Below are positions 1 to 22,658 of a stretch of DNA of 64,000 nucleotides, piece by piece (within the stretch, counting starts at the first letter, position 1; every line of letters starts with the position of its first letter). The stretch is from a virus. The position numbers and the translations under genes are program-made. The notes under the pieces are model-generated. The model searched no databases. It saw only the letters and a list, made by a program, of their open reading frames with translations, and was not told where the DNA came from. Location: positions 12,682-76,681 of the IMG/VR virus record IMGVR_UViG_3300007616_000002; one strand, 5' to 3'.

Positions 1-361
1 CCGAGAGAGCATGACCCAGCAGACTCAGAGTACTACCAACGTAGGTGACCCTGAGATAGAACTGGACGATAACGAGGTCCTCAAGAAGGCCAAGAACTCC
101 AAGTCTGGAAAGAAGTTCGAGGCGCTGTGGAACGGTATCACCTCGGGTTATGATTCACACAGTGAGGCTGACCTCGCACTCTGTAGCTATCTGGCGTTCT
201 GGACTGGTGGAGACAAGAACCAGATGGACGACCTCTTCCGTAAGTCTGGTCTCATGCGACCGAAGTGGGACAACCAACACGCTTCGGACGGGGATACCTA
301 CGGCGACCTCACCATTCAGAAGGCGATTCGAACATCCGATAGTTTCTACGGGCAGAACTGA
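1..361 (+). CDS. C-terminal helical-bundle domain of an NrS-1-type primase-polymerase (probably 5'-truncated by the window edge)
   Basis: SEADLALCSYLAFWTGGD..QMDDLFRKSGLMRPKWD...TYGDLTIQKAI signature of the NrS-1 polymerase HBD; frame is open upstream of the ATG at 11. Confidence 0.8.
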   Translation, partial: RESMTQQTQSTTNVGDPEIELDDNEVLKKAKNSKSGKKFEALWNGITSGYDSHSEADLALCSYLAFWTGGDKNQMDDLFRKSGLMRPKWDNQHASDGDTYGDLTIQKAIRTSDSFYGQN

Positions 362-498
362 GAATTAGTACTGCCAAACTTTGTAAAGCTTTTTCCTGAA
401 ACCTTTTATAAGATTCAAGATTTTCCTTGACGGAGTAGGTAAACACACTCCGAGGCCAGCCACACGCGTGTGTTTGTATTTCTTTCAGAATAGCTGGA

Positions 499-535
499 CA
501 GCCAGTTGGCCAACCAGTAATCCAGCCAGTAATAC
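499..535. repeat. CAGCCAGTAAT tandem repeats, copy 1 (centromere- or iteron-like) in an origin-like intergenic region
   Basis: CCAGTAATCCAGCCAGTAATA at 514-534 is identical to 18638-18658. Confidence 0.75.
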
Positions 536-727
536 GCGCGTGTACACGTTCGTTTTGAAGTCTGTGACACTCAAGCGAGTGTGTGACTGACTCTTGCGAA
601 ACATTTATTATCCCCCCGACTCTATACTTGGGTAAGCACTGATGGTTGAGGGGCGAACCGGACGCCACGGAGAGATGAGGCGTCGTAAGGTTTATACCCT
701 ACCCGGTGCATAAAACTAAACACAAAC

Positions 728-1906
728 ATGAGTTTCCGAGACATTGCAAGCCAAGGCGCAGTTGACAGTCGAGAAAACAACGCAGATGATTCCGAAGATG
801 ACGGGCAGTCCGTCGAAGACTACGGCATCGACGTAGACTTCGATGAAATTGCCTTCGTCCGATGTTCGCCCACCGTCTTTGTGACGGGCGTGTTCCCGAA
901 CGAGGACGAGGGTAACCCCATCATCCGCTTCAAGAACGCGGACTACAACGACGGTCGATACGACCAAGGGTACCTCGGGCTGGTCATCGAAGACCCCGAG
1001 CCCATCGTCTCCGAAGACGAGGGAACTGGTGGCACTGTCATCCTGAAGACGGACGACCAAGACTCCACCGACTACCGAATGTTCGACTCCAACGACGACG
1101 AGACGAAGGTCGTGGAAGGCATGGGTGTCAAGTTCGGCAACAAGCTCTACGAGGGCGAGGTCCTCGAAGAGTTCTCCGAAGACCGTATTCTGCTGACGGT
1201 CAGCGGTGCTTCGTCCAAGAACGTGGCCCGTCGCCTCGACAAGAAGGGCGCTCTCGTGGCTGGCATGGACGAGGAGAACGGTGGCGTCAACGACGGCCTC
1301 ATCGAGTACAAGCCCTACGACCAGCGAGAAGACGGTCAGAACGAGGTCACGTCGCGCTACGCCCGTGACCCCGAACTCAAGACTGACCTCCACGAGACCC
1401 GTGTGGGCCTGTTCCTCGCCCGTCGTGAGGAACTGGACGACGAGAACACTGGCTACCTCGGTGCCGAAGGGCAGGGTCAGGAAGGAGACGGTCGTATTCC
1501 CCTCCTCGGGGAAGCACCTGACGGTGTGGACACGCACGCAGACCCCGATGAGGCCTCCTATGCGGAACTGGTGGCTGACGACAACCGTGGCGAGCGACCG
1601 ATGTACTGGTACGTCGTCTTCAACGTCGAGGCCGAGGAAGAAATCGAGATGGAAGAGACCGACGACGAAATCGTGGGCTACTCGTGGCTCGATGACGACT
1701 GGGACCAGTTCGACCCGAGCGTCGGCGGTATTCCCGACGACCAGTGGGAGTTCGTGGAGCACTTCGTGGAGATGGTCGATGAAGGTGAAGTGACTGACAC
1801 CTCCGAGGAGAACATCATCGCAAACATCGAAGACAACGCCGATGCCTTCGAGAGCGAGCCTGAGACGGACTCGATGGTCAACGCGATTACGAACCGCGTC
1901 GAATGA
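728..1906 (+). CDS. Acidic hypothetical protein (possible ssDNA-binding or replication protein)
   Basis: 392-aa ORF with strong haloarchaeal codon bias, TATA-like promoter near 691; function only inferred from context. Confidence 0.7.
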   Translation: MSFRDIASQGAVDSRENNADDSEDDGQSVEDYGIDVDFDEIAFVRCSPTVFVTGVFPNEDEGNPIIRFKNADYNDGRYDQGYLGLVIEDPEPIVSEDEGTGGTVILKTDDQDSTDYRMFDSNDDETKVVEGMGVKFGNKLYEGEVLEEFSEDRILLTVSGASSKNVARRLDKKGALVAGMDEENGGVNDGLIEYKPYDQREDGQNEVTSRYARDPELKTDLHETRVGLFLARREELDDENTGYLGAEGQGQEGDGRIPLLGEAPDGVDTHADPDEASYAELVADDNRGERPMYWYVVFNVEAEEEIEMEETDDEIVGYSWLDDDWDQFDPSVGGIPDDQWEFVEHFVEMVDEGEVTDTSEENIIANIEDNADAFESEPETDSMVNAITNRVE

Positions 1907-2046
1907 GCGACTACATCGTCGTGAGTGAGTACGGAACAGAGTACTCCACGCCGATGACACGACAACACGCCGTGGCAAAGGCCAACTCGCTCAACTGGTC
2001 AAAGATGCACGAAGCATCTGAAGCAGAGGCAGTCGAGGCCGAGTAA
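1903..2046 (+). CDS. Small hypothetical protein (47 aa)
   Basis: ATGA overlap with the previous stop; MSDYIVVSEYG...EAE*. Confidence 0.55.
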   Translation: MSDYIVVSEYGTEYSTPMTRQHAVAKANSLNWSKMHEASEAEAVEAE

Positions 2047-2059
2047 GGCTCCACTTGCG

Positions 2060-2070
2060 TTTTTTTTTTT
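2060..2070 (+). terminator. Oligo-T archaeal-type terminator
   Basis: 11-T run just after the stop at 2046. Confidence 0.6.
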
Positions 2071-2227
2071 GAGCAGATTACTTTCGATAGCGATAGCTAT
2101 TCAGCCTTGACAAAGTTACAGCAAGTAAACACACTGCGCTTCTTCTTATTGCACTCTCTTTCTTCATCTATCGCCACGAGATGTTCACACTTAACTTTAA
2201 CCCTACCTGTCCTTGATTGCCGGAAGA

Positions 2228-2242
2228 TTTAAGTCCCACCCG
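2228..2242 (+). promoter_or_regulatory. Viral promoter motif (TTTAAG..CCCG) for the RNA ligase operon
   Basis: TTTAAGTCCCACCCG preceded by purine-rich BRE-like GAAGA; one of about 30 copies. Confidence 0.75.
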
Positions 2243-2262
2243 ACACAACTCAAGGATGAAAG

Positions 2263-3162
2263 ATGGAAACGTATCCCAAGTTACGCTATCCCGGGGAAGA
2301 GGCCACACAAGGCCTGTTCGCCAGTGGTTCTATTGTTATACAGGAGAAGTTAGATGGTTCGAACTTTCGGTTTACGTGGGAACCCGATACTGGATTCACG
2401 TTCGGGTCTCGGCGGACTGAAGGAGAGGGTCTTCACCGTGACCAGTTTGCCGACGCTATCGAGTACGTCGAAGAGAACGTCAGTGAAGTCGAGCTACGGA
2501 GCCAGCACAACGAGTTCGGTAAGCTAGTCTACTTCGGTGAGTTCATGAACCCGCATACCATCTCGTATGACTGGGAGGGAACGCCCGACTTCATCGGCTT
2601 CGACGTATGGTCTGAGGACGCGCAGAACTTCCTCACAACGGGTCTTGTCCAATCCCTGTTCGATGGCCTCGACCTTCCCACTGCGCCGATTGTGACGACT
2701 GTGAGCGCCGATGAGTGGGACGACTACGACTTTGAGTGCCCCGAGTCCGAATACTACGACGGAAAGGCTGAGGGTGTGGTGTTCAAGAATCATACGACCG
2801 ACACTTACGGAAAGTATGTTCGAGAAGACTTCAAGGAGAAGAGCAAGCAGACCTTCGGACCCAGCAAAAAGTCCTCACTCAACGATACGGAGCGAATGGT
2901 CTACGCCTACATCACCGAGGCCCGTATTAGGAAAGCAATATATAGGCTTCAAGATGAAGAAGGTAAAAAGATTAGAATGGAGATGATGGCTGAAGGACTT
3001 CCGCAAGAAGTTATTTCGGATTTTGTAGATGAGGAAGGGTTTAACGTGTTTATGAATGAGAATTGGAAAATAGGAATTGGAGAATTCCGGTCAATAGTAT
3101 CTAGTAGATGTGCTGAAGTTCTTCGTCGTGAAGTAGATAAAAAAGTGAAGGAGGAGCTATAA
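2263..3162 (+). CDS. ATP-dependent RNA ligase (Rnl2-like)
   Basis: Nucleotidyltransferase motifs QEKLDGSNFRF (I), YFGEF (III), FIGFDV (IIIa), EGVVFK (IV), K (V). Confidence 0.88.
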   Translation: METYPKLRYPGEEATQGLFASGSIVIQEKLDGSNFRFTWEPDTGFTFGSRRTEGEGLHRDQFADAIEYVEENVSEVELRSQHNEFGKLVYFGEFMNPHTISYDWEGTPDFIGFDVWSEDAQNFLTTGLVQSLFDGLDLPTAPIVTTVSADEWDDYDFECPESEYYDGKAEGVVFKNHTTDTYGKYVREDFKEKSKQTFGPSKKSSLNDTERMVYAYITEARIRKAIYRLQDEEGKKIRMEMMAEGLPQEVISDFVDEEGFNVFMNENWKIGIGEFRSIVSSRCAEVLRREVDKKVKEEL

Positions 3163-3965
3163 TGCCTATAAAAATAACTTGTGATGAGTGTGGGGATGAA
3201 TTTACTGTTCCACCCTCGAATTCCGAGCAGAAATATTGCTCTCGTGAATGTTATTTATACAAAAATAATCCTAATAAAGAAGAAAAAGTTTCAGTCAATT
3301 GTGACTGGTGTGATAGTAATATCCAAAGAATACCGTCATTAGTAGAACGAACAGAAAATAACTTTTGTGACCAAAAGTGTTCTTCCAAATGGAGGTCTGA
3401 GAACTGGACTGGTGAACGTTCACCGACATATAAAGACGCATCTGTCGAATGCACGTGTGAATGGTGTGGTTCAGATTATGAAGAATGGAGTACTCGAAAA
3501 GAACGTACTCGATTTTGCTCTCTTGAGTGTCGGAATAAATGGCAATCTTCACGTGATGGACCCGAGCACCCACTGTACAAAGGTGGTAGAAAAGAATTTG
3601 GTGAAAATTGGAAAGAAATGAGAAGAGAAGCATTATCACATTACGGAGAAGAATGCAGTCTATGTGGAGCAGATTCATCTAATTCACTGATTGATGTTCA
3701 TCATATAATACCAAGATGGCTATGGGACAATGTTGATGATGCAGACAAACTATGGAATCTTACTCCACTTTGTAGGTCTCACCATATGAAAGTTGAACGC
3801 CAAACTGAGAAAGTTATTGAGAAAATGGCCAAAGAGGAGGCCGAGAATATCTTCATGGAGGAGAACTGGGAAATCGACACGGGTGAAACACTCTCCATCG
3901 TCTCGAACCGGTGCTCCGAGGTCCTGCGTCGGATGATTGACCAGAAAATCAAGGAGGAGCTATGA
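3162..3965 (+). mobile_element. Free-standing HNH homing endonuclease with CxxC/FCS Zn repeats, fused to a duplicate of the ligase C-terminus
   Basis: DVHHIIP...NLTPLCRSHH; repeated CxxC and FCSxxC; AT-rich; last 46 aa match the ligase end at 28/46 positions. Confidence 0.85.
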
Positions 3966-4225
3966 GTAGCCCTGTAATTTGTGAAGACTGCGGAAAGCGG
4001 GTCTCTATCTGTGCTGTCTCAACTGAGTCAAAGGAAGAATACAAGAAAAGCTACGGCGGATTCGTCCAGTCAAAAGGTGAGCGTGTGTCGGTGAGACTTG
4101 GCCTCGCCTGTGTTTGTACGGTCTACACCGGGCATAAATTGAGATATGAAGGGCTAGATTCGGGAACATTCAAAGAGAAACCCGAGAAGTTCCCGGAAAA
4201 TTGGATTAAGGTGAAAGATGACTAA
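3962..4225 (+). CDS. Small Cys-rich hypothetical protein
   Basis: CEDC...CVC; ATGA coupling. Confidence 0.6.
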   Translation: MSSPVICEDCGKRVSICAVSTESKEEYKKSYGGFVQSKGERVSVRLGLACVCTVYTGHKLRYEGLDSGTFKEKPEKFPENWIKVKDD

Positions 4226-4607
4226 AGAGTACACCATCGAGGTTGATGTGGATGGGGAGCCCACTGAGGTAACCCTCTCTCAGCCCCAAGGAATAGAGTT
4301 TATGCACATAGTGGCGACGATGCCCGATAGCTTCTCTGAAATGGGGCCTGAAATTGACCTTGATTCAGATGATGTTGATTGGTTACAGGCCCTTCTGGAG
4401 GTTACAACAGACCTTAGCCGCCGTGAGATACAATCTGGTATCTCTGTCGAAGACCTCAATAAACTAATTGGTGCCTCAGCAGAAGTGTTCGCAGGTGAAG
4501 AACCTAGCACACCCAGCGATAGTTTTCGAATAGAACGGTCTGAAGGACCGTTCGAGGCGTTTGAGCTTGACAGTGATGGGTCTGTTGACACGGATGAGTG
4601 GCGATGA
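4218..4607 (+). CDS. Hypothetical protein (weak resemblance to tail-assembly chaperones)
   Basis: 129-aa acidic ORF overlapping both neighbours. Confidence 0.6.
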   Translation: MTKEYTIEVDVDGEPTEVTLSQPQGIEFMHIVATMPDSFSEMGPEIDLDSDDVDWLQALLEVTTDLSRREIQSGISVEDLNKLIGASAEVFAGEEPSTPSDSFRIERSEGPFEAFELDSDGSVDTDEWR

Positions 4608-5014
4608 GTGAGACCACCCAGTGCCCTCTTGAAGGTTTGAAAGAAGATTCAGATGGATGTGATGGGCAGGCAAATCTACTGTTTGACGGCTCGTTGTACT
4701 GTCCAACATGTGAAAACATGTTTGAAACAGAGTACACCCTTCGGGACGAAGATGAGAATATGTATGCAGAAGAAGTTCGAGACCTTCTGGAAGAAGACGC
4801 TGAAGTAGTGTATGAAGAGTATATCCGACTACTCGACCTGTATTACAAGAAACCTTTAGGATTCCCCGATGAAGGGCTGTATCAACGCTTTCAGTGCATA
4901 TTTCCTCTGCTTATTGTAAAATATATACAAACTATGAAATCGTACCAAGAGGAAGTAAATCGAGAGATTAGAAACCAACTTCGGAGACAATCAATAAATA
5001 AAAAGACAGTTTGA
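4604..5014 (+). CDS. Hypothetical protein with N-terminal Cys cluster
   Basis: C..C..CPTC; ATGA overlap. Confidence 0.55.
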   Translation: MSETTQCPLEGLKEDSDGCDGQANLLFDGSLYCPTCENMFETEYTLRDEDENMYAEEVRDLLEEDAEVVYEEYIRLLDLYYKKPLGFPDEGLYQRFQCIFPLLIVKYIQTMKSYQEEVNREIRNQLRRQSINKKTV

Positions 5015-5038
5015 CTACGAGTTTGTTAAGAAGAAAGG

Positions 5039-5053
5039 TTTAAGTACCACCCG
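5039..5053 (+). promoter_or_regulatory. Viral promoter motif TTTAAGTACCACCCG
   Basis: Consensus copy 33 nt upstream of ATG 5072 (near-leaderless). Confidence 0.8.
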
Positions 5054-5071
5054 AGACTATTTTCGGGCACA

Positions 5072-5530
5072 ATGAACGACGAAGAACGAATTGATGCTGT
5101 TTTGAGCGCGGTGGCAAACGTGCTCCTCGATAAAGGTGATGGGTATAGCGTCGGCCAATTGGTGGCTGACCTCGAAGGAGATGGAAATACACATGAGTCT
5201 GACCCGTACCACGTGTGGGACCGGCACTTCCTTCAAGACATGGAGAAGCAAGCTACTGAATGGCGAGACGAGCCCCGTGACTTCGAAGAGGTAGAGAGTC
5301 TCATGGACGCCTTCTACGAGTACTGGTCCGAAAATACGGAGAAGAAATTCTGCCAGATTGTATGCATGGCACACGCTATCGAGAATGGAATTAGTGGATA
5401 TAATGATGAATCTCCGTATCAGGAACCGATAGATAATCTTGGGGATGACCAGTTACGACGGTATCTAAACAAGCGCCTCGAAAAAGAGGACTTCGAAGTT
5501 GAAGCCGCGGAGGCTATCATCAATGAGTGA
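5072..5530 (+). CDS. Hypothetical protein
   Basis: 152-aa acidic ORF behind a consensus promoter. Confidence 0.7.
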   Translation: MNDEERIDAVLSAVANVLLDKGDGYSVGQLVADLEGDGNTHESDPYHVWDRHFLQDMEKQATEWRDEPRDFEEVESLMDAFYEYWSENTEKKFCQIVCMAHAIENGISGYNDESPYQEPIDNLGDDQLRRYLNKRLEKEDFEVEAAEAIINE

Positions 5531-5744
5531 CGGACTATCTCTCGAAGTAACCGCTGAGTCTGTGTTTGTTGTGGACTACACGGAAGAGGAGGTTAAAGAA
5601 CTTATCGAAGCAGGTCGAATCTCAGATGAGGAAGAGCTTATCAAAGAGACGAAGGGACAGCTTCGAGAAGAGATTAATCATCAGGCTAATGGTCGTGAGC
5701 TAAAGTCTGTTGACGTAACTGCTGAGGTGGTCGATGATGAGTGA
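5523..5744 (+). CDS. Hypothetical protein
   Basis: Acidic ORF; C-terminus VDVTAEVVD resembles LEVTAEVEE of 5882-6112. Confidence 0.6.
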   Translation: MSDGLSLEVTAESVFVVDYTEEEVKELIEAGRISDEEELIKETKGQLREEINHQANGRELKSVDVTAEVVDDE

Positions 5745-5880
5745 ACGATATGAGTGTCCCGAGTGTGGTTCTGTCGTAACACTCGACCTTGCTGGAGGGG
5801 GAACAGCCAACTTCGGAACGGCGTATTGCTCCGGTCGAGAAGAAGACCCGCACACAGCTACACTAATGGAGAGTGAATAA
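5737..5880 (+). CDS. CPxCG Zn-finger microprotein
   Basis: MSERYECPECGS...C...H. Confidence 0.55.
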   Translation: MSERYECPECGSVVTLDLAGGGTANFGTAYCSGREEDPHTATLMESE

Positions 5881-5881
5881 G

Positions 5882-6112
5882 ATGGGTGATATTACTATTA
5901 CGACGACTGTTCATGCATTGACTCAGAAGTCCCATGACAAAGAAGAACTACAAGAGCAGATGGACCGGTTGGGACTCGATAATATGGATGAATTTATCGA
6001 AATGGCTGAAACATCTGTCGAGTCACATCTTCACGAAAATGCGTTTGAGGAAGACGCACTCGAACTACTTGAAGTAACCGCAGAGGTGGAAGAAAGTGAC
6101 GAGTCTGCCTGA
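5882..6112 (+). CDS. Hypothetical protein
   Basis: Acidic ORF in operon. Confidence 0.6.
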   Translation: MGDITITTTVHALTQKSHDKEELQEQMDRLGLDNMDEFIEMAETSVESHLHENAFEEDALELLEVTAEVEESDESA

Positions 6113-6359
6113 CGAATTAATCGAGTATCACTTCGTTCTGAAGGACGGTGAGTCCTTCAAGGTCGATGCGGAGTACGTCGAGGTCGAGTACGGTGAGTCT
6201 GAGAAGCCCCATATCATGGCCGAGGTGAAGAAGTGGACGCTCTCGACCAAGACGTACTCACGTGAGATAACTGAAAGAGACGTAGAATCAGTGATGGCAG
6301 TTGTAAAAGACGAAGAGCGTGACAACGCGAAGTCGCTCATCAGCGGTAAAGACACGTAA
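6096..6359 (+). CDS. Hypothetical protein
   Basis: 87-aa ORF in operon. Confidence 0.6.
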   Translation: MTSLPDELIEYHFVLKDGESFKVDAEYVEVEYGESEKPHIMAEVKKWTLSTKTYSREITERDVESVMAVVKDEERDNAKSLISGKDT

Positions 6360-6422
6360 ACACACGCGCTACTCTTCTCAAACAGCGAAAGGTTTATTAC
6401 CCTCCCAACCCTCGTACTGTGT

Positions 6423-6911
6423 ATGAAGTTCAATCAGACCAAGAAGTCTATTGCTGAGAGAACTCGGACGACCAATCACGAGGGTGGGGAGGCGTTCGAA
6501 CCCGAAGATGTTCGACTTGGGCTTTATAAAGTCGTTATCAACAATCTTCTTGAAGACTCGTTCTACGAGTCCGACGAGGAGAGCTTTGACAAGGTGAAGT
6601 CACGTTTTGAGGAGTGTGTCATCGAGCACCCCGAGTTCGTGCTGAAGCTCGCCTACTGGGCCCGTGAAGAGGCGTACCTTCGGCAGATTCCCCAGCTACT
6701 GCTCGTGTTTGCGGCTAACAACGAGCACACGAAGGGGTACGTCCGTGAGTACTCTACTGGAGTCATGCAACGGGCTGACGAGCCGCTGGAGGTGCTTGCA
6801 ATGCAGGTGGAACTCTTTGGGACGAGTATTCCGAACCCTCTCCAGAAGGGTATCGAGGACGCACTGCACACGTTCGATGAGTACGAAGTGTCAAAATGGG
6901 ATACAGCATGA
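6423..6911 (+). CDS. Ro60/TROVE protein, N-terminal half
   Basis: TTNHEGGEAF, EDSFYES, LAYWAREEAYLR, QRADE, FDEY..SKW, all typical of TROVE domains. Confidence 0.88.
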   Translation: MKFNQTKKSIAERTRTTNHEGGEAFEPEDVRLGLYKVVINNLLEDSFYESDEESFDKVKSRFEECVIEHPEFVLKLAYWAREEAYLRQIPQLLLVFAANNEHTKGYVREYSTGVMQRADEPLEVLAMQVELFGTSIPNPLQKGIEDALHTFDEYEVSKWDTA

Positions 6912-7693
6912 GCTGGAATAAAGTTTCCAAGTCAGAGTGTACCGGTGCTCTGGTTCAGGCGAAGCAGGAGTTGGGTGAGTCGCCCAGCGTGTCCCAGTAC
7001 CGTGAGTTGGACCTACAACCAACAGTCTACACCATGCAAAATAAATTCGGTTCGTGGAACAAGGCGAAAAGGGCCGCTGGCCTGCAAGCTTGCACCAACC
7101 GTGTTGTGAGTGATGACGAGATAAGCATTGCCATCAACCTGTACGCAGGTGGACTGTCAGTCCGGGAGGTTGCTGATGAGTTAGAAGTCCAACCACAGAC
7201 AATCCATTACCACCTTCAGAATGAGGGGGTTACCGAGTCCATCTCTGAGGCTCTAAAAGGACGTGACCATAGCTGGGGAGACAAGATTTCGCAATCTCTG
7301 GAAGGTCATGAGGTTAGCGAATCAACTCGTGAGAAGATTTCAGAGACCCATACCGGGAAAGAGCCTTGGAACAAGGGAAAAACGAAGAAATCCCACCCAG
7401 ACGAAATCGACTACGGGCGCTCAGGTGAAGCGCACCATGCTTGGAAGGGTGGTATTAGTAGTGAGTTGAACCGACTGCGACAAACACCTGAGTACAAGGA
7501 ATGGCGTAAGTCAGTGTTCGAGCGTGACAACTGGACATGCCAAGATTGCGGTCAGAGAGGCGGTGAATTGAACGCGCATCATATCAAATCATTTGCGGAG
7601 AACGAAGACCTTCGGTTTGACGTAGATAACGGAGAGACACTATGCAAGGAACATCATATCGAGCGACACATGACGGAGGAGAGAAATGAGTAA
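6908..7693 (+). mobile_element. HNH homing endonuclease (HTH + NUMOD3-like + HNH) inserted in the TROVE gene
   Basis: FGSWNKAKRAAGL, HEVSESTREKIS, PWNKG, WKGG, RDNWTCQDCG...AHHIK...NGETLCKEHH. Confidence 0.9.
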
Positions 7694-8693
7694 CAAGAGC
7701 CGTGAGTTCAGCTACCGAGACCTGATGAATCTCGTCCATCCCAAGCCCCGAGACGACCTTCGGAAAGAGCTATTCAAGCGGATTGCACTCGGTGAACTGG
7801 ACGACCACCCCGAGGTCGAGCCGCTGAAACAGCACCGGACGTGGGAGGATACCATGTCGAACGACGATGACGACCGCTCGGAGGCAGAAAAGTTCCACGA
7901 CCGGCTAGACGATATGGGCCTCTTCGCCAAGATTCGGAACGTCCGGAACATGCTTGAGGCTGGGCTGGAGCCCGAGGTAATCCTCACAGACGAGGACCTC
8001 GATTCTGTTCCCCACGTCAAGCTGTTCCCGTTCCGCTTCTACCAAGCGTACAAGGCTGTAAAAGACGCTGGGTACCGCTCGACGTATCTCGATGTGTGGT
8101 TCGAGAACGCCATCGACCGGTCTGTCGAAAACGTTCCCGAGGAGTTCGGAGACACCTATGTAGCGGCTGACACCTCCGGGTCGATGACGTGGACGCCCAT
8201 CTCCGATAACTCGGACCTTACCCCGATGGAGATAGGGGCGCTCTTCGGCGCTGTGTGCGGTTCGAAGGGCGCAAAGGTGTCTGCCTTCGCAAGTACCCAC
8301 GAAGACGTTCAGTTCCACGCTGGCGAGCCTGTGCTCTCGATTCAGGACCGCATCAAGGAGGCCCCCGCAGGCGGCGGGACACACGGGTACAAAGTTCTCA
8401 AGACACTCCGTCAACGAGGAGAGAGTTGGGAGAACGTCGCACTCTTCACGGACACCCAACTTTGGGGCGGCTCGCTGAAGGAGGAGTGGGACAAGTACAT
8501 GCAGGAGGTCAATCCCAACGCGAGCCTCTACATCGTAGACCTCGCAAGTTACGGCGACCTCGTGGTTCCCGAGGGGTACGATTCGGTCTATCGAGTGTCG
8601 GGTTGGAATGAGAACATCGTAAAGCACATCCGGTACGCATCGGAAACGGATGCCGCGATTCAGGAAGTCGAATCTGTCGGCTCTCCTGAGTAG
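7686..8693 (+). CDS. Ro60/TROVE protein, C-terminal half with vWA domain
   Basis: RDLMNLVHPKP, TWE, RNVRN, LFPFRFYQAY, MIDAS DTSGSM, GGGT, FTDTQ, SGWNE. Confidence 0.88.
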   Translation: MSNKSREFSYRDLMNLVHPKPRDDLRKELFKRIALGELDDHPEVEPLKQHRTWEDTMSNDDDDRSEAEKFHDRLDDMGLFAKIRNVRNMLEAGLEPEVILTDEDLDSVPHVKLFPFRFYQAYKAVKDAGYRSTYLDVWFENAIDRSVENVPEEFGDTYVAADTSGSMTWTPISDNSDLTPMEIGALFGAVCGSKGAKVSAFASTHEDVQFHAGEPVLSIQDRIKEAPAGGGTHGYKVLKTLRQRGESWENVALFTDTQLWGGSLKEEWDKYMQEVNPNASLYIVDLASYGDLVVPEGYDSVYRVSGWNENIVKHIRYASETDAAIQEVESVGSPE

Positions 8694-8731
8694 TCGGAAC
8701 ACTTTTAACCCATCCGTTGCAATAAACGGAT

Positions 8732-9439
8732 ATGAGTTCAATCGAGAGCGTAGAAAACGTTGAAGAGCGAAAGGTAATTGCGGTTGATTTTGACAAAACC
8801 CTCACGACTGGAGAGGGTGCCGACTTTTGGGAAGACGACGAGAAAGAGTATCCCAACGAAGAAGTTATTGACTGGGTGAAAGAGATGTATCACAACGGAC
8901 ACGTCATCATTATCCATACCGCCCGACAGTGGGAACAGGCTTCTACTGTCGAATCGTACTTAGTCAAGTGGAACGTTGAGTACCATGGACTACGCTGTAA
9001 CAAGACCGGTGCTGACCTCTATGTTGACGATAAGGCTGAAAACGTCGAGAAGGTATCAAATTCGAATGAGGAAACTTCTGTAGTCGGAAAAGAGTCAGTC
9101 TCTGAGAAAAAGTGTGATATATGCTCAGAGAAGTTCTCGACGGACGATAATCGGACAGTGTGTAGTAAACACGGTGCTTTCTCAACTACCGAAAAGGAAG
9201 ATGAAGACGGAGAAGACAAATACATTGGAGAGGTGACATTCTTCAATGATACTGGTGGTTATGGGTTTGTCGAAGCAAAGGGTCTCGATAAAGAGGTGTT
9301 CTTCCATATGGAAGACCACGATTTTCCGGAACCGGAAGAAGGATACAAAGCCGTGTTCGAGGTCGAACAGCACGAAAAGGGTCCGCGGGTTGAGAAGTTC
9401 CACGAGTTAAACACCAACGTTTACTTCACGAAAGAGTAG
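8732..9439 (+). CDS. HAD-family (PNKP-like) phosphatase fused to a Cys/His knuckle and a cold-shock domain
   Basis: IAVDFDKTL, HTAR, YVDDK; CDIC..CSKH; FFNDTGGYGF..VFFHMED. Confidence 0.82.
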   Translation: MSSIESVENVEERKVIAVDFDKTLTTGEGADFWEDDEKEYPNEEVIDWVKEMYHNGHVIIIHTARQWEQASTVESYLVKWNVEYHGLRCNKTGADLYVDDKAENVEKVSNSNEETSVVGKESVSEKKCDICSEKFSTDDNRTVCSKHGAFSTTEKEDEDGEDKYIGEVTFFNDTGGYGFVEAKGLDKEVFFHMEDHDFPEPEEGYKAVFEVEQHEKGPRVEKFHELNTNVYFTKE

Positions 9440-9477
9440 TCGAAATACTTTTAACCCGCCCGGTCATCTTATCGGGT

Positions 9478-10413
9478 ATGAGTGAACCCCACCATTGGCC
9501 GCTTCATGCTGTCAAAGAATTTGAAAACCAGCATGATATAGACGTTATCGAGATTCGAGACTTTGGCTCCCGTTCGAACAATATGGATGGTCCCGACTCC
9601 GACAGGGATGCAATGTTCATATTCGACCAGCCCGCACTGGCGCACAAAACACTCGGTAACGAGGTCGACACGATTCATACCGAAAAGTATGACGTTGACT
9701 TCCACGGATGGAATCTTCGGAAATTCGCCAGCCTGCTCTCCGATTCGAACCCGCAGGCGCTCGATTTCCTTAACTCAGAGATTCAGTACCATACCGCAGA
9801 GCCGAAACACGCCATCAGTGAGCAACTTGAAGACCTTCGACTGTACGCAAATCGGAACTTCAATCCGATTCGACTCTACATGCACAACCGGTCGAAGGCC
9901 AAATCGAACTACGAGAAGTACGTTCTCCGAAAACTCATCGGACAGAACGGAGAGAGTGGCCAGTATATCATCGAAGGAGAAACGGATGAAAAATACGAGG
10001 TCACACCCAAAGGGGAAGACGCAAACCCGTACAACAGCATAGGAAAGAATAACGTCGGTGACGGAGAGAAGTTCCGACTAGCAACCACTGACCGGACAAT
10101 TCGGCGTAACCTGAAGGTCATTCAAGTGGTTCTCTATGCCCGTCACATCCGCAGAAGTAAGTCGCTTCCGCAGATGGACTTTGAGGAGTTCCTTGAGCAC
10201 AGTGTCGATTCTACCATTCAAGAGCGCGTCATGGACCTGCTGGAGATGAAACGAAAGGGTGAGGGAGATATGGAAGCAGGAAACCCCTTCGAAGACCTCA
10301 TTGAGAGTGAAATCAACTACGACGTTGACCATCAGAACCTCAACCAAGCAGGTATAGACCGTGAGATAGTCAATCAGTTCATCCTCGACATAGACGGTCT
10401 GCTCTACCGGTAA
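9478..10413 (+). CDS. RlaP / Nuc-transf-like Pol-beta nucleotidyltransferase
   Basis: FGSR..MDGPDSDRD..FIF, DFHGWNLRKF..LL..SNP..L.FL.S. Confidence 0.82.
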   Translation: MSEPHHWPLHAVKEFENQHDIDVIEIRDFGSRSNNMDGPDSDRDAMFIFDQPALAHKTLGNEVDTIHTEKYDVDFHGWNLRKFASLLSDSNPQALDFLNSEIQYHTAEPKHAISEQLEDLRLYANRNFNPIRLYMHNRSKAKSNYEKYVLRKLIGQNGESGQYIIEGETDEKYEVTPKGEDANPYNSIGKNNVGDGEKFRLATTDRTIRRNLKVIQVVLYARHIRRSKSLPQMDFEEFLEHSVDSTIQERVMDLLEMKRKGEGDMEAGNPFEDLIESEINYDVDHQNLNQAGIDREIVNQFILDIDGLLYR

Positions 10414-10441
10414 GAGAAGTAAACACACTGATTCATTACCC

Positions 10442-10627
10442 GTGATTGAACCCACAAACGTAGACATTGGCGATTGGCTTACAGTATCTGACAAAGACTC
10501 CCGGTACAACGGTGAGCAAGGGCGAGTGCTTGCAATCTACGAAGACCACCTGATACTGGAGATTCCCGAGGAGAACGGGTGGTCGATTACCCTTGACTTC
10601 GACCTCGGCCAGCTTTCACGAGCGTAG
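10442..10627 (+). CDS. Small SH3/KOW-like protein
   Basis: IGDWLTV..SRYNGEQGRVLAI. Confidence 0.55.
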   Translation: MIEPTNVDIGDWLTVSDKDSRYNGEQGRVLAIYEDHLILEIPEENGWSITLDFDLGQLSRA

Positions 10628-10712
10628 CACACGGCGTGTGTTTGTCTTCTTTTGGTAGTCAAAGGGGTCACCCGGAAAGTTTATAATCCCCCCGAACCAA
10701 AAGTCTAACAGA

Positions 10713-12647
10713 ATGAGCACAGGAGAGTTTAGCTTTGGCGACAAAGCAACCGAAACTGCCACAGAATCTTCTAACCCTAACTCTGAGGCAGAGACGGAGC
10801 TTGGTGATTTTGAGGACGCTGAGACCACCTCTGATGAGGTCGAAGAAAACGTAGGTTCTGAGGAGCCCGACGAAGCGGCCAGTTCTGAGCCTGAGTACAA
10901 CTATACCCTCCATAGTAACGTTATAGAGGACCTTGTAATGTACTCTCGGTCCGCGCAGGCAAAGAACGAGCCGCAGTTTGTTTTGACGACGCTGGGTTAT
11001 CTTACCGGTCTGATGGAAAACCCGCACCATTACGTTTCTGGTGTCATTATTGGAACATCTTCTTCAGGGAAAACGCATATGCAGGACAAAGTGGAGAAGT
11101 TGTTCCCCGAAGATTGGATGTATAACTTTACCACGGGGTCGGACCAGACACTCGCCTACGACAGTGAGTGGGATGAGAGTCGTATCGCATCACTGGACGA
11201 GCTTAATAAGGTCTCTGAGGAACTGACGGAGATTCTGAAGTCCGTTCACGGCGGTGACGAGAAGTTCAAGCGGAAGGTCGTTCAGGACTGGCGAAATGAG
11301 GAGATGAAGACACTCGAACGTGAGGCTCTCCCGTACTGGTTCCTGTTCGCACAATTCGACAGTGACTTCGAACTCTGGAATCGACTTTTGAAAGTGCCTG
11401 TTCACGAGGGTCAGGCAAAGAATGAGGCCGTGCTGAAGCTCCAGTTCGACCACCACAATATCGAGTTCTCAGACTCACCGTACACGTATGACTTCGAGTT
11501 CACCGACGGGAAGATGGCGCTTCAGGACCACATCGCCAGCCTGCCCAATAACTCGTGGGTCAAACTCCCGGCGGGTGAGGAGAAATTCAACGGGTTTGAC
11601 GTGGCGTCAACTGTCCAGTCTATCTTCGACACTCAGCGAAGTGAGACTAACCGTGTTGCGGGTATGGTTGCAAATCTCGTCCGAGCGTCGGCCCTACTAA
11701 ACCACAAAAACCGAGAGAAGACGACGATTCACATCCCTAACGAAGGGGAAAAAGACGTTATCGTCGCAGAACCCGAAGACGTTGCGAACATCCTCGCGTG
11801 TCGTGACGTTCTTTTGGCAAGCACACACGAACTCGACCGCAAGAAACAGGCTATCTGTTCTGCTATCGATTCGAAGGGTGGGACCCAGAACATGGCAACC
11901 ATCCCTGATATTGTAGAGTACCTTCGACAGGGTAATGCTCCCATCGTCAGCCGAACGCAGGTCGAGAAAAACCTCAACCAGATGATAGACCACTATCTAA
12001 TCGAGAGGTATGAGGGGGCGAGCGAAGACGGTCTCAACATGTACAAGTTCATGGGGTGGCACAACATCGGTGCTATCCGAACTGACGAACAGTTCCAAGA
12101 GCGTTTCGAGGGGATTCAGAACCCGATTACGGGAGAAAACTTCCTCGAAGCCGTCGAGCGCCTCAACGATGACATTCTCCCGGGTGCAAGTGATTTCACA
12201 CAGGAGGCGACAGTGCAGTCGGATACGGGAAGTTCTGGTGGACAGGCAACGCTTGGTACATCGGACAGTTCAATCGACCTCGAAGCGCATGAGGAGGCTG
12301 TCAGAGCCGCTATGAAGTCCGCCATCGACGGGGTGAAGTTGGAGAACCTAGACGAGTTCGAGCCGTCCCTGTACGCTATGACTGGCGTTGCCGACCTCGA
12401 ACACGAGCCGTCTGACCCCGACCCCGACGTTGAGGATACCATCTTCGACCCGGAAAAGGGTATCTGGAACCGTCCTGACGTGAACGACAACTGGGTCACC
12501 TCGGAGAAGGAAGCCTACGACGCCGTGAACGAGACCATCACCGACCTCCAGAAGAAGGGTGTCTTCAAGATGGACATTCACGAGACGAACGAGGCAACTG
12601 AAGCTGTCGAAGCGACTGTCTCTGTGATGAGCAAGGACCAGCTATGA
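10713..12647 (+). CDS. AAA+ ATPase with wHTH, putative replicative helicase
   Basis: Walker A GTSSSGKT, Walker B IASLDE, ELWNR arginine finger; helicase role inferred. Confidence 0.7.
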   Translation: MSTGEFSFGDKATETATESSNPNSEAETELGDFEDAETTSDEVEENVGSEEPDEAASSEPEYNYTLHSNVIEDLVMYSRSAQAKNEPQFVLTTLGYLTGLMENPHHYVSGVIIGTSSSGKTHMQDKVEKLFPEDWMYNFTTGSDQTLAYDSEWDESRIASLDELNKVSEELTEILKSVHGGDEKFKRKVVQDWRNEEMKTLEREALPYWFLFAQFDSDFELWNRLLKVPVHEGQAKNEAVLKLQFDHHNIEFSDSPYTYDFEFTDGKMALQDHIASLPNNSWVKLPAGEEKFNGFDVASTVQSIFDTQRSETNRVAGMVANLVRASALLNHKNREKTTIHIPNEGEKDVIVAEPEDVANILACRDVLLASTHELDRKKQAICSAIDSKGGTQNMATIPDIVEYLRQGNAPIVSRTQVEKNLNQMIDHYLIERYEGASEDGLNMYKFMGWHNIGAIRTDEQFQERFEGIQNPITGENFLEAVERLNDDILPGASDFTQEATVQSDTGSSGGQATLGTSDSSIDLEAHEEAVRAAMKSAIDGVKLENLDEFEPSLYAMTGVADLEHEPSDPDPDVEDTIFDPEKGIWNRPDVNDNWVTSEKEAYDAVNETITDLQKKGVFKMDIHETNEATEAVEATVSVMSKDQL

Positions 12648-12853
12648 AGGAAGAAAAAGTTAACGTTAATATTAACGTGACTGATACAGACGAAAATGGA
12701 AATCAACTCGTGGTTATAAGTGTCAACGGTGACGTTACAAAGAGCGAGGTAGAGGAAGGTAAGAGCTATGCAATTTCTATCAAAAAGACTGTTGAAGTAG
12801 AACAAACAGATGGAGTGATTGCGGCCGTCAAAGAACTGCTGGGTTTGTACTAG
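12644..12853 (+). CDS. Hypothetical protein
   Basis: ATGA overlap. Confidence 0.55.
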   Translation: MKEEKVNVNINVTDTDENGNQLVVISVNGDVTKSEVEEGKSYAISIKKTVEVEQTDGVIAAVKELLGLY

Positions 12854-12895
12854 AGCCCACAACATTTATAACCCACCCGTCCCAAATACGGGTGA

Positions 12896-13075
12896 ATGAA
12901 TACTAACGAAGGTTCTGGTCTACGTGGTGCTCTCTCGGAAGCCGAACGAGAGCGTGAGGCAGTAAAACAAATGTTTCGAGAGGATACCGGTGCTGATTCT
13001 GTTCGATTAGAACACAGTAACATGGGTACTACTGTCCATCTCGTCTTCCGGAAGGATGGTGATGGTGAACTATGA
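12896..13075 (+). CDS. Hypothetical protein (59 aa)
   Basis: Follows promoter motif near 12864; ATGA overlap with the next gene. Confidence 0.55.
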   Translation: MNTNEGSGLRGALSEAEREREAVKQMFREDTGADSVRLEHSNMGTTVHLVFRKDGDGEL

Positions 13076-13689: not shown

Positions 13690-13693
13690 TACA

Positions 13694-22238: not shown

Positions 22239-22270
22239 GTTTAAGATATTTACGGATTTGTCCCTTGTCT

Positions 22271-22285
22271 CGGGTGGTACTTAAA
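22271..22285 (-). promoter_or_regulatory. Viral promoter motif for nrdJ
   Basis: Reverse complement is TTTAAGTACCACCCG, identical to 5039-5053. Confidence 0.8.
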
Positions 22286-22546: not shown

Positions 22547-22566
22547 AACAAAGGTAAACACACTTG
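22547..22566. repeat. AACAAAGGTAAACACACTTG, copy 1 (extended GTAAACACAC motif)
   Basis: Exact 20-mer repeated at 34290-34309. Confidence 0.75.
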
Positions 22567-22658
22567 CGACAGCATTGTCTGGACGGTGCTATCCCTCTTC
22601 CCCGTTGCTGTCCTCTGGGGAAAGGCTTAAGTCCCGGCCGTTCAAATAGTCTGATAAC

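What the first reader, a model, noticed from the sequence alone, without database searches (positions are those of the whole stretch)
2263..10413. Candidate virus-encoded Ro60 / RNA-repair system in an archaeal virus, possibly partnered with tRNA-mimic RNAs
Seen: within about 8 kb are an Rnl2-like ligase, a Ro60 (TROVE + vWA) gene, a HAD phosphatase fused to a cold-shock domain and an RlaP-like nucleotidyltransferase; the last three are consecutive. The same genome carries 14 tRNAs, two tRNA mimics lacking a normal anticodon arm and several structured ncRNAs. Established: Ro60 binds Y RNAs, bacterial YrlA RNAs are tRNA mimics, and Ro60, RlaP and RNA ligases co-occur in RNA-repair neighbourhoods. 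Inference: this is an end-healing, tailing and sealing module with an RNA-tethered Ro60 that counters host anticodon nucleases or remodels the tRNA pool. I do not know of such a Ro60-ncRNA system characterised in haloviruses.
Basis: partly seen in the sequence, partly recalled or inferred. Interest (0 to 1): 0.9.

Follow-up and report, generated by a model that had tools for sequence, protein, structure and literature searches.

The report
Halovirus Ro60, Y RNA, RNA-repair genes
An archaeal (haloarchaeal) virus carries a real set of RNA-repair genes and a Ro60 gene cut into two pieces by a selfish endonuclease gene, and its genome also encodes a tRNA-like Y RNA of the kind Ro60 binds in bacteria, a partnership I found no report of in archaea or their viruses.

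Summary
Window 2263-10413 encodes an Rnl2-family RNA ligase, Ro60 (TROVE+vWA), a HAD phosphatase fused to a cold-shock domain, and an RlaP nucleotidyltransferase. All have intact catalytic motifs.

Corrections:
- Ro60 is two ORFs (6423-6911 and 7686-8693), split by a free-standing HNH endonuclease gene (6896-7693). All 160 relatives I fetched are unsplit. Three metagenome runs carry the split.
- The RNA partner is not one of the in-window "mimics". A covariance model built from RNAs upstream of haloarchaeal Ro60 genes has YrlA order (T arm, closed acceptor stem, D arm). It also finds RNAs beside bacterial Ro60 genes. It hits one RNA in this virus at 28.6 bits, E about 1e-6. That RNA lies 0.9 kb before the window and 7.4 kb upstream of Ro60, starts at a viral promoter, and is followed by two tRNA-shaped RNAs. 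RtcB lies just upstream.
- Only one in-window anticodon-less tRNA mimic is verifiable (27090-27158).

Ro60-RlaP synteny recurs in HGTV-1-like viruses. I read this as a known kind of system, phage RNA repair plus a Ro60/Y RNA particle, in a new setting. The first stage noted the split and this system in other notes. Binding, reassembly of the halves and counter-defence are all inferred.

The parts
2263..3162 (+). Rnl2-family ATP-dependent RNA ligase (299 aa), ortholog of HGTV-1 gene 217
   Evidence: Pfam RNA_ligase at 2e-21 and phrog_548 over its full length. Motifs KLDGSN, YFGEF, EGVVFK and K..K are present. It is 46% identical over residues 1-299 to the HGTV-1 RNA ligase.
3162..3965 (+). HNH homing endonuclease ORF whose last ~52 aa duplicate the C-terminus of the ligase
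   Evidence: HNH hits in Pfam and PHROGs. The tail ...ENWEIDTGETLSIVSNRCSEVLRRMIDQKIKEEL resembles the ligase tail, and it matches the HGTV-1 ligase C-terminus at 50% identity.
6393..6399 (+). TATA-like box (TTTATTA after CGAAAGG), 30 nt before the Ro60 N-half ATG
   Evidence: Read from the sequence. It resembles the viral promoter consensus cgaaaNNTTTAAGTAcCCCCG, which occurs 14 times in the genome. That it acts as a promoter is inferred.
6423..6911 (+). Ro60 N-terminal half (162 aa, TROVE HEAT repeats), ending ...KWDTA*
   Evidence: Pfam TROVE profile positions 51-156 and phrog_850 positions 2-124. It is 60% identical to HGTV-1 gp129 residues 1-163. All 15 family-invariant columns are kept.
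6896..7693 (+). Free-standing HNH homing endonuclease gene (265 aa: HNH_repeat, NUMOD3, HTH, HNH) that fills the whole insertion and overlaps both Ro60 halves
   Evidence: Pfam and PHROGs. It lies in a different frame, and the Ro60 frame has 9 stops across the insert. There is no group I intron hit, no junction helix for an archaeal BHB (bulge-helix-bulge) intron, and no intein blocks. Contigs from 3 runs span both junctions.
7686..8693 (+). Ro60 C-terminal half (335 aa: rest of TROVE plus a vWA domain with MIDAS DTSGS), with its own ATG 5 nt after GGAGGAG
   Evidence: Pfam TROVE 273-360 plus vWA_Ro60, and phrog_850 positions 160-469. The family profile matches phage phiLo Ro60 (9KOP) at 7e-61, as well as Rsr 2NVO and Xenopus/human Ro60. 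All 31 invariant columns are kept. The junction was read.
8732..9439 (+). HAD-family phosphatase (small, capless, Pnkp-phosphatase-like), then a CxxC..CxxH segment, then a cold-shock domain
   Evidence: CSD at 3.6e-7. HAD_PNKP and Hydrolase_3 hits are weak and below cut-off. phrog_1238 at 4e-24 and phrog_415 (polynucleotide kinase family) at 2e-7. The CSD aligns to CspB with the GYGF and VFFH motifs. DFDKT, HTAR and K..YVDDK were read. The nearest relative has the HAD alone.
9478..10413 (+). RlaP (RNA-ligase-associated Pol-beta) nucleotidyltransferase
   Evidence: Pfam PF10127 at 94 bits against a cut-off of 23, and phrog_14344 at 1e-43. FGSRS...DSDRD read. It lies downstream of Ro60 in 13 related loci.

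Best explanation
The window comes from an HGTV-1-like tailed halovirus (Ro60 45% identical to HGTV-1 gp129). Embedded in its replication/early gene block is an RNA-repair and RNA-surveillance toolkit. It comprises an Rnl2-family ligase (seals 3'-OH/5'-P nicks), a Ro60 ortholog, a Pnkp-like HAD phosphatase tethered to single-stranded RNA by a cold-shock domain (3'-end healing), and an RlaP nucleotidyltransferase (restoring lost 3' nucleotides). Upstream of the window the same genome encodes RtcB (seals 2',3'-cyclic-P/5'-OH ends). It also has a promoter-driven ncRNA unit made of a YrlA-type Y RNA followed by two tRNA-shaped RNAs whose anticodon arm is replaced by a long bulged helix. The Ro60 gene was invaded by a free-standing HNH homing endonuclease gene. 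That gene supplies a stop, a Shine-Dalgarno-like GGAGGAG and a new ATG, so Ro60 is made as two polypeptides (162 and 335 aa). These most likely reassemble without a covalent bond into the ring, as the phage Aeh1 NrdA halves split by mobE do. Proposed working: the two-piece Ro60 binds the conserved bulged helix (..CGAG / 8-9 bp / WUACUUCG) of the Y RNA. The tRNA-like module of that RNA then brings the particle to tRNA-handling enzymes, or acts as a nuclease-resistant decoy. The ligases, phosphatase and RlaP rejoin tRNAs (the virus carries at least 14) cut during infection or spliced from intron-bearing precursors. Shown here: gene identities, intact motifs, the split, synteny in relatives, and the presence and fold of the Y RNA. 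Inferred: assembly of the halves, Ro60-Y RNA binding, the substrates, and any counter-defence role.
For: Domains and motifs are. The split is clean at KWD|..|KSRE relative to the intact HGTV-1 protein. The insert is filled by an intact HNH ORF in another frame. Both halves keep every family-invariant residue. Identical contigs spanning both junctions occur in 3 runs from 3 studies. All 160 relatives are unsplit. Synteny: Ro60 followed by RlaP in 13 loci including HGTV-1; HAD between them in the 3 closest loci; Rnl2 or RtcB within a few kb in 10 loci. RtcB is at L004:8453-9946. Y RNA: model R1 was built only from 11 haloarchaeal RNAs (32 pairs, 7 with compensatory changes). It hits L004:11626-11749 over its full length at 28.6 bits, E 1.6e-6 in 358 kb. 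The best non-tRNA score in the whole window with filters off is 15.8 bits, and a tRNA-dimer artefact scores 17.6. The de novo fold reproduces the 4-way junction with z -5.4. R1 also hits 46 of 50 haloarchaeal Ro60 loci, upstream and on the same strand, and 7 of 10 bacterial Ro60 loci. A consensus viral promoter sits 34 nt before the RNA's first base. Y-like hairpins lie directly upstream of Ro60 in HGTV-1 and L085-87. Precedents are PMC4201824, PMC12135203, PMC7824862 and PMC3045599.
Against: No expression or binding data exist, and no RNA run holds the sequence. In this genome the Y RNA is 7.4 kb from Ro60, not adjacent as in relatives, and the short hairpin found upstream of Ro60 in HGTV-1 is missing here. 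A split Ro60 has no precedent and could be inactive. No polynucleotide 5'-kinase, RtcA or archease was found in the 53%-complete contig, so the Rnl2 pathway lacks a visible healing kinase. The HAD hits to Pnkp-type models are below Pfam cut-offs. The genes are interleaved with replication genes: a prim-pol upstream and a primase-associated helicase-like ORF at 10713-12647. They are therefore a loose neighbourhood, not an operon. E-values from the short-calibrated model are rough.
Confidence: 0.6

Rival explanations
1. This is a maturation toolkit, not a repair or counter-defence one. RtcB and the Rnl2 ligase serve to join exons of the virus's own intron-bearing tRNAs. Ro60 with its Y RNA acts as quality control for misfolded viral tRNA and other precursors. 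The HAD and RlaP proteins trim and rebuild 3' ends during processing.
For: The virus encodes at least 14 tRNAs, including tRNA-Ser(UGA) with a 33-nt intron. RtcB is the archaeal tRNA-splicing ligase (PMC7790460, introduction). The HGTV-1 literature reads its ligases this way (PMC8651126). In haloarchaeal cells Ro60 and its Y RNAs sit at the end of large tRNA arrays rather than next to rtcB.
Against: One intron-bearing tRNA hardly calls for two ligase types plus RlaP and a phosphatase when the host already has a splicing ligase. In phages the same gene set is read as a response to host RNases (PMC7824862). This reading does not exclude repair, and the two overlap.
Confidence: 0.25
2. Ro60 was inactivated by the HNH insertion. 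The two ORFs are decaying remnants, and the neighbouring RNA genes work (or not) independently. There is no Ro60 particle in this virus.
For: The split is unique among 160 relatives. The Y-like hairpin found directly upstream of Ro60 in HGTV-1 and L085-87 is absent here. Homing endonuclease genes are abundant in this genome and also hit the ligase gene.
Against: Neither half has a frameshift or internal stop. All 46 family-invariant positions, including the MIDAS residues, are retained. Identity to the nearest homolog is the same for both halves, 76% and 70%. The C-half has an ATG with a GGAGGAG 5 nt upstream. A YrlA-type RNA is still encoded. Split enzymes of this kind can stay functional (PMC3045599).
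Confidence: 0.12
3. The insert is removed at the RNA or protein level (group I intron, archaeal BHB intron ligated by RtcB, or intein), so a single full-length Ro60 is made.
For: The halves are in the same reading frame. The virus encodes RtcB.
Against: No Rfam intron family hits 1-14000 even at E 10. The HNH ORF fills the insert, leaving no room for a ribozyme core. The junction regions are less complementary than random pairs, -13.5 against a mean of -19.8 kcal/mol, so no BHB helix forms. The HNH ORF is out of frame and no intein N- or C-blocks flank the junction.
Confidence: 0.03

Closest known systems
Bacterial and phage Ro60 (Rsr) with YrlA/YrlB Y RNAs, e.g. the Salmonella rsr-yrlBA-rtcBA operon, mycobacteriophage loci and Thermus phage phiLo phiRo60 with Yrl1/2 (PMC4201824, PMC7790460, PMC12135203)
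   Same: It has a TROVE ring plus a vWA/MIDAS protein; the profile matches the phiLo structure at 7e-61. The Y RNA has its ends in a bulged helix carrying a CGA(G/A) motif and a tRNA-like module in the order T arm, closed acceptor stem, D arm. RtcB is in the same genome. The same covariance model finds RNAs beside bacterial Ro60 genes.
   Different: The host domain is Archaea. Ro60 is in two polypeptides. The Y RNA is 7.4 kb from Ro60 and transcribed with two tRNA-shaped RNAs. The motif is CGAG rather than GNCGAA. There is no RtcA or RtcR. The effector, PNPase in bacteria, is unknown here.
Phage RNA-repair gene sets: Rnl1/Rnl2/RtcB with RlaP, Pnkp-type end-healing enzymes and ROT/TROVE (Burroughs and Aravind 2016, as summarised in PMC7824862)
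   Same: An Rnl2-family ligase, RtcB, RlaP, a HAD phosphatase of the Pnkp type and a TROVE protein occur together in a tRNA-rich tailed virus. HNH endonucleases are associated with the Rnl2 genes.
   Different: No kinase domain is found next to the HAD. The HAD is fused to a cold-shock domain instead. The genes are scattered among replication genes. This is an archaeal virus.
Halogranum tailed virus 1 (HGTV-1, NC_021328): gene 129 (TROVE), 126 (nucleotidyltransferase), 140 (RtcB), 217 and 233 (RNA ligases)
   Same: It has the same gene set and local order Ro60-(HNH)-x-RlaP-helicase-like ORF. The ligase is an ortholog at 46% identity. It has Y-like hairpins and a tRNA-shaped RNA with the UUACUUCG..AUCUGGA motif.
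   Different: HGTV-1 Ro60 is intact, with the HNH gene downstream of it. It has no HAD-CSD. It has a Y-like hairpin directly upstream of Ro60 but no full YrlA-type hit. Its tRNA-shaped RNA is annotated as 'tRNA-Asp + intron'.
Genes split by free-standing homing endonucleases: phage Aeh1 nrdA-a/mobE/nrdA-b (PMC3045599, PMC2988022)
   Same: An HNH-family endonuclease gene is inserted into a conserved gene, producing two ORFs with new stop and start signals and no intron or intein. The halves are predicted to assemble.
   Different: The target is an RNA-binding ring protein, not an enzyme of nucleotide metabolism. The virus is archaeal. Function of the split product is untested.

Membership tests
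Ro60 / TROVE (Rsr) | TROVE HEAT-repeat domain followed by a vWA domain | tested here: met
   Pfam TROVE on both halves plus vWA_Ro60. phrog_850 positions 2-124 and 160-469. The family profile matches solved Ro60 structures 9KOP, 9L5Y, 2NVO and 1YVP.
Ro60 / TROVE (Rsr) | MIDAS motif DxSxS..T..D in the vWA domain | tested here: met
   DTSGS at C-half residues 162-166, plus T232 and D256, all invariant in 41 homologs.
Ro60 / TROVE (Rsr) | One continuous polypeptide of about 500-540 aa forming a closed ring | tested here: not met
   There are two ORFs of 162 and 335 aa separated by an HNH gene.
Ro60 / TROVE (Rsr) | Binds a Y RNA | not testable with these tools
   A candidate partner exists. Binding needs pull-down or EMSA.
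YrlA-type Y RNA | 5' and 3' ends paired in a bulged helix carrying a conserved CGAA-like motif on the 5' strand | tested here: met
   AACGC/GCGUU and GGAAACGG/CCGUUUCC helices flank the ..CACGAG.. loop. The motif is CGAG, one base off the published GNCGAA.
YrlA-type Y RNA | tRNA-like module in the order T arm, closed acceptor-like stem, D arm | tested here: met
   GCGGGUUCAAAUCCCGC, then the 7-bp stem UCCGAGA..UCUCGGG, then a D-like arm. Full-length alignment to R1 and the same fold de novo, z -5.4.
YrlA-type Y RNA | Encoded next to the Ro60 gene | tested here: not met
   It is 7,355 nt upstream of the Ro60 start in this genome. Adjacency holds in 46 of 50 haloarchaeal loci and, for short Y-like hairpins, in HGTV-1 and L085-87.
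Rnl2-family RNA ligase | Nucleotidyltransferase motifs I (KxDGxN), III, IV and V | tested here: met
   KLDGSN, YFGEF, EGVVFK and KYVREDFKEK. Pfam PF09414 at 77 bits against a cut-off of 27.
Rnl2-family RNA ligase | Rnl2-type C-terminal domain and nick-sealing activity | tested here: inconclusive
   phrog_548 aligns residues 1-287 of 299, but there is no sequence hit to any solved ligase. Activity was not tested.
RlaP nucleotidyltransferase | PF10127 above cut-off with the Pol-beta GS..DxD motif, associated with RNA ligase genes | tested here: met
   94 bits against a cut-off of 23. FGSRS..DSDRD. The ligase lies 6.3 kb away and RtcB is in the same genome.
T4 Pnkp-type end-healing enzyme | HAD phosphatase with DxDxT | tested here: met
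   DFDKT, HTAR and K..YVDDK. The Pfam HAD_PNKP hit is 18 bits against a cut-off of 27.6, so assignment to the Pnkp subfamily is weak. phrog_415 at 2e-7.
T4 Pnkp-type end-healing enzyme | P-loop 5'-kinase domain in the same protein | tested here: not met
   There is no kinase domain in 8732-9439. The only P-loop kinase-like ORF is 13072-13689 (AAA_18), next to nucleotide-metabolism genes.
Free-standing HNH homing endonuclease splitting a host gene | Intact HNH ORF, with no intron ribozyme and no intein, giving two separately translated halves | tested here: met
   HNH_repeat, NUMOD3 and HNH with HH..N..H. No Rfam intron hit. No BHB helix. The ORF is out of frame, and stop and start are supplied at the junctions.

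The most novel reading that the evidence does not exclude
The virus runs a three-RNA 'Y RNA operon'. One promoter drives a YrlA-type RNA followed by two tRNA-shaped RNAs (L004:11802-11929 and 11934-12059). These two are circular permutations of YrlA: an open acceptor stem, with the Ro60-type bulged helix closed by a loop at the anticodon position. RNase P and RNase Z would cut them out like tRNAs. A two-piece Ro60 would load them, giving nuclease-proof tRNA decoys or repair scaffolds. The homolog in HGTV-1 has been annotated as an intron-bearing tRNA. This would be a new, permuted class of Y RNA, and the first Ro60 particle of Archaea and their viruses.
Probability: 0.3. Interest if true: 0.78.

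Novelty: new variant of a known kind. Interest (0 to 1): 0.64.

Why it matters
What Ro60 and Y RNAs do in prokaryotes is still largely open. It has been studied in three bacteria and one Thermus phage. This work places YrlA-type RNAs in a haloarchaeal virus, in its relatives including the cultured HGTV-1, and upstream of Ro60 in 46 of 50 haloarchaeal genomes, where they close large tRNA arrays. I found no paper in the held library linking Ro60, TROVE or YrlA with haloarchaea or haloviruses. If confirmed, the Ro60/Y RNA particle extends to the third domain, in organisms with good genetics. The tie between Ro60 and tRNA supply or repair becomes directly testable. The work also offers a natural two-piece Ro60 for dissecting ring assembly. 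It further suggests that at least one 'intron-containing tRNA' annotated in haloviruses may be a Y-like RNA.

Tried and rejected
- Megablast of the region against phage records found nothing.
- The search for related loci with the single protein found nothing. Only the alignment query worked.
Gene contexts of the best protein hits and assembly of the two halves therefore could not be examined that way.
- Rfam gave no Y RNA, YrlA or intron family at E up to 10 in window 1-14000, window 22000-36000 or L004.
- ARAGORN's intron solutions for the two tRNA-shaped RNAs ('tRNA-Ser(tga)' with a 41-nt intron, 'tRNA-Gly(ccc)' with a 33-nt intron, and 20+ nt variable arms) look forced. I found no bulge-helix-bulge motif at those sites, so I do not accept them as ordinary tRNAs. 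I cannot exclude it either.
- The second in-window 'mimic' at 27836-27915 gets no tRNA-model hit.
- The R1 hit at window 27188-27292 is the tRNA-His T arm plus the tRNA-Gly D arm. This dimer artefact was foreseen in PMC4201824.
- Sequencing runs: no RNA holder is listed.
- The read laying joint 6581->8027 (31-nt sides, 85% likeness) does not fit the insert borders. It is most likely a more abundant relative, not an HNH-free allele.
- The ORF at 10713-12647 was considered as a Ro60 effector. It looks like a primase-associated P-loop helicase instead.
- The 152-aa ORF after RtcB is not recognisably archease.
- No RtcA was found.
- phmmer of the ligase and of RlaP against solved structures gave nothing useful.
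- A BLAST for a homolog of the tetraloop tRNA-like RNA in HGTV-1 gave only T-arm matches.
- A second covariance model for the short Y-like hairpins was not built, because MAFFT misaligned their 3' strands.

Full report
**Origin.** The window is bases 12682-76681 of a 76,681-bp IMG/VR viral contig, about 53% complete. No phage record matches at the DNA level. The Ro60 C-half is 45% identical to gp129 of Halogranum tailed virus 1 (HGTV-1), and the local gene order is shared. I therefore read it as an HGTV-1-like tailed halovirus.

**The genes.**
- Pfam and PHROGs confirm an RNA_ligase/Rnl2-family protein (2263-3162), a TROVE protein, a HAD-CSD protein (8732-9439) and RlaP (9478-10413, 94 bits).
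- The catalytic motifs are intact: ligase KLDGSN, YFGEF, EGVVFK and K..K; HAD DFDKT, HTAR and K..YVDDK; RlaP FGSRS..DSDRD; vWA MIDAS DTSGS.
- The cold-shock domain aligns to CspB with the GYGF and VFFH RNA-binding motifs.
- A profile of the halophile Ro60 family matches the solved phage phiLo Ro60 at 7e-61, and also Rsr and the vertebrate Ro60 structures.
- The ligase is the ortholog of the HGTV-1 gene 217 ligase, 46% identical over its full length. The literature calls that gene an Rnl2-family ligase (PMC8651126).

**The split Ro60.** Ro60 is two ORFs, 6423-6911 and 7686-8693.
- Between them, overlapping both by 16 and 8 nt, lies a 265-aa HNH endonuclease gene in another frame, with HNH_repeat, NUMOD3, HTH and HNH domains.
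- Against intact HGTV-1 Ro60 the break is clean. HGTV-1 reads ..KWD-RP-SRE... The window reads ..KWDTA* and MSN-KSRE...
- The Ro60 frame carries 9 stops across the insert.
- The C-half ATG follows a GGAGGAG by 5 nt.
- No group I intron model hits. The two junctions are less complementary than random pairs, so there is no archaeal bulge-helix-bulge (BHB) helix. No intein blocks flank the break.
- All 160 relatives I fetched have a contiguous gene.
- Contigs from three soil-metagenome runs in three studies span both junctions without a difference. One of these runs may be the source of the contig, so at most two are independent. On this evidence an assembly artefact is unlikely.
- Both halves keep every invariant residue of the family. 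This argues against decay.
- The known parallel is nrdA of phage Aeh1, split by mobE and still functional (PMC3045599).
- In HGTV-1 and several relatives an HNH gene sits just downstream of Ro60. Here one has landed inside the gene.
- The ligase gene was hit too. The HNH ORF at 3162-3965 ends with a copy of the ligase C-terminus, as an earlier first-stage note proposed.

**Co-occurrence.** tblastn of the window's proteins on 160 Ro60 loci separates two groups.
- HGTV-1-like viral contigs share prim-pol .. ORF392 .. Ro60 - (HNH) - (HAD) - RlaP - a 600-aa ORF. RlaP follows Ro60 in 13 loci. Rnl2 or RtcB lies within a few kb in 10.
- The nearest relative, L085, has an intact Ro60, a stand-alone 118-aa HAD, a zinc-ribbon protein and RlaP. 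The CSD fusion is therefore specific to this lineage.
- The 644-aa ORF after RlaP resembles primase-associated P-loop helicases, so I count it as replication, not RNA.
- Upstream of the window the same contig has RtcB (L004:8453-9946), an unknown 152-aa ORF, an HD plus cytidylyltransferase-like protein and a SLOG-HD protein.
- RtcA, archease and a clear polynucleotide kinase were not found.

**The RNA partner.**
- The second group of loci turned out to be haloarchaeal chromosomes and plasmids: about 50 species of Halorubrum, Haloarcula, Halovenus, Natronomonas and others.
- In these, Ro60 sits at the end of arrays of 20 or more tRNA genes, between tRNA-Arg(UCG) and tRNA-Gly(GCC).
- Within the 550 nt upstream there are 2-4 T-arm-bearing elements that ARAGORN does not call as tRNAs.
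- They share a module: an outer stem, a 5' loop ..CGAG, an 8-9 bp inner stem, WUACUUCG ... and a 3' loop AGUUUCC. The copy nearest Ro60 continues with a T arm, a closed 6-7 bp acceptor-like stem and a D arm. This is the order that defines YrlA (PMC4201824).
- RNAalifold on 11 of them gives 32 pairs, 7 with compensatory changes.
- The covariance model R1, built from these 11 sequences only, finds such RNAs upstream of Ro60 on the same strand in 46 of 50 named haloarchaeal loci. It also finds RNAs beside Ro60 in 7 of 10 bacterial loci such as Chryseobacterium, Hymenobacter and Limnohabitans. This ties the family to bacterial YrlA.
- In the virus, R1 hits L004:11626-11749 over its full length at 28.6 bits, E 1.6e-6 in 358 kb and 6e-8 in L004 alone.
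- Scored with filters off, nothing in the window exceeds 17.6 bits, and that hit is a tRNA-His/tRNA-Gly dimer artefact.
- The RNA folds de novo into the same four-way junction (-54.4 kcal/mol, z -5.4, 0 of 200 shuffles fold as well).
- Its first base lies 34 nt after the start of a TTTAAGTA box. This box belongs to the viral promoter consensus, found 14 times in the genome before genes and tRNA arrays.
- The RNA lies 933-1056 nt before window base 1 and 7,355 nt upstream of the Ro60 start.

**Other Y-like RNAs.**
- A second promoter at L004:5418 precedes a short hairpin with the same module (5448-5530, z -5.05).
- HGTV-1 and L085-87 have such a hairpin directly upstream of Ro60 (z -2.8). The window lacks it: the 63-nt gap before Ro60 holds only a TATA-like box.
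- Right after the YrlA-type RNA come two tRNA-shaped RNAs, L004:11802-11929 and 11934-12059. They have normal acceptor, D and T arms, but a roughly 55-nt bulged helix where the anticodon arm should be. They also carry the ..(C/G)GAG-stem-UUACUYCG motif.
- Homologs of the second one, sharing UUACUUCG..AUCWGGA, occur in L086, L020 and HGTV-1, where it is annotated as 'tRNA-Asp + intron'.
- They read as circular permutations of YrlA. I hold this at about 30%, because noncanonical introns cannot be excluded.

**In-window tRNA-like RNAs.**
- 27090-27158 is a perfect cloverleaf with a GGAA tetraloop on a 5-bp stem instead of an anticodon loop (z -3.1).
- 25569-25686 is tRNA-Ser(UGA) with a 33-nt intron.
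- 27836-27915 is unsupported.
- None of these is YrlA-like.

**Reading.** This is a known kind of system. RNA-repair sets of ligases, RlaP, end-healing enzymes and a TROVE protein with a tRNA-like partner are described for phages (PMC7824862). Phage Ro60/Y RNA pairs are documented (PMC4201824, PMC12135203). Three things appear new:
- the archaeal setting: I found no paper in the held library linking Ro60, TROVE or YrlA with haloarchaea or haloviruses;
- the two-piece Ro60;
- the Y RNA unit unlinked from Ro60 and joined to tRNA-shaped RNAs.

Binding, assembly of the halves, substrates and any counter-defence role are inferences.

Noticed in passing
L004:11626-11749 (G000 contig; 933-1056 nt before window base 1): A YrlA-type Y RNA with T arm, closed acceptor-like stem and D arm, and with its ends in a bulged helix. 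It scores 28.6 bits with a model built from haloarchaeal RNAs, folds with z -5.4, and starts 34 nt after a TTTAAGTA promoter box.
   Followed up: yes
L004:11802-11929 and L004:11934-12059: Two tRNA-shaped RNAs directly after the Y RNA. The anticodon arm is replaced by a roughly 55-nt bulged helix carrying ..GAG-stem-UUACUYCG. The HGTV-1 homolog (L003:5537-5668) is annotated 'tRNA-Asp + intron'. They may be permuted Y RNAs or tRNAs with odd introns.
   Followed up: partly
L004:5448-5530 (and perhaps 5560-5715): A short Y-like bulged hairpin (z -5.05) starting at a second TTTAAGTA promoter. A longer and less clear element with CGAG-CGAGUCGG-AUACUUCG follows it.
   Followed up: partly
L169-L220 and L089-L138 (haloarchaeal chromosomes and plasmids): In about 50 haloarchaeal species Ro60 closes an array of 20 or more tRNA genes, between tRNA-Arg(UCG) and tRNA-Gly(GCC), and is preceded by 2-5 tandem YrlA-like RNAs. 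These may be a mobile 'tRNA array + Y RNA + Ro60' island. Some genomes carry two copies.
   Followed up: partly
window 27090-27158: A tRNA-like RNA with a GGAA tetraloop in place of the anticodon loop. ARAGORN miscalls it tRNA-Glu(ctc). HGTV-1 has a possibly related odd 'tRNA-Ile(gat)' that also begins ACGAG, with a 6-bp stem and a 5-nt loop (L165, minus strand, 825-895).
   Followed up: partly
window 2926-3965: The HNH ORF after the RNA ligase ends with a diverged copy of the ligase's last ~46-52 aa. The endonuclease element apparently entered the 3' end of the ligase gene and brought or left a replacement end.
   Followed up: yes
whole contig, 14 sites (e.g. window 5039, 26288, 27355, 34233; L004:5418, 11592): A conserved promoter-like motif, (g/c)ACCGAAAnnTTTAAGT(A/G)cCcCCG, lies before leaderless genes, tRNA arrays and the Y-like RNAs.
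   Followed up: partly
L004:10513-11580 and L004:6544-7524: An HD phosphohydrolase fused to a cytidylyltransferase-like (HIGH-type) domain, and a SLOG (YAcAr) domain fused to an HD domain. Both lie near RtcB, and their roles in RNA or nucleotide signalling are unknown.
   Followed up: no
window 26540-26750, 26903-27089 and 28053-28206: Spacers of 150-200 nt inside the tRNA array have no ORF or Rfam hit. An earlier first-stage note calls two of them a diverged ncRNA pair. They are not YrlA-like by model R1.
   Followed up: no
window 13072-13689: A P-loop kinase-like ORF (AAA_18 at 1.7e-11) next to ThyX and dCTP deaminase. It is probably a nucleotide kinase, but it is the only candidate for the missing polynucleotide kinase.
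   Followed up: partly
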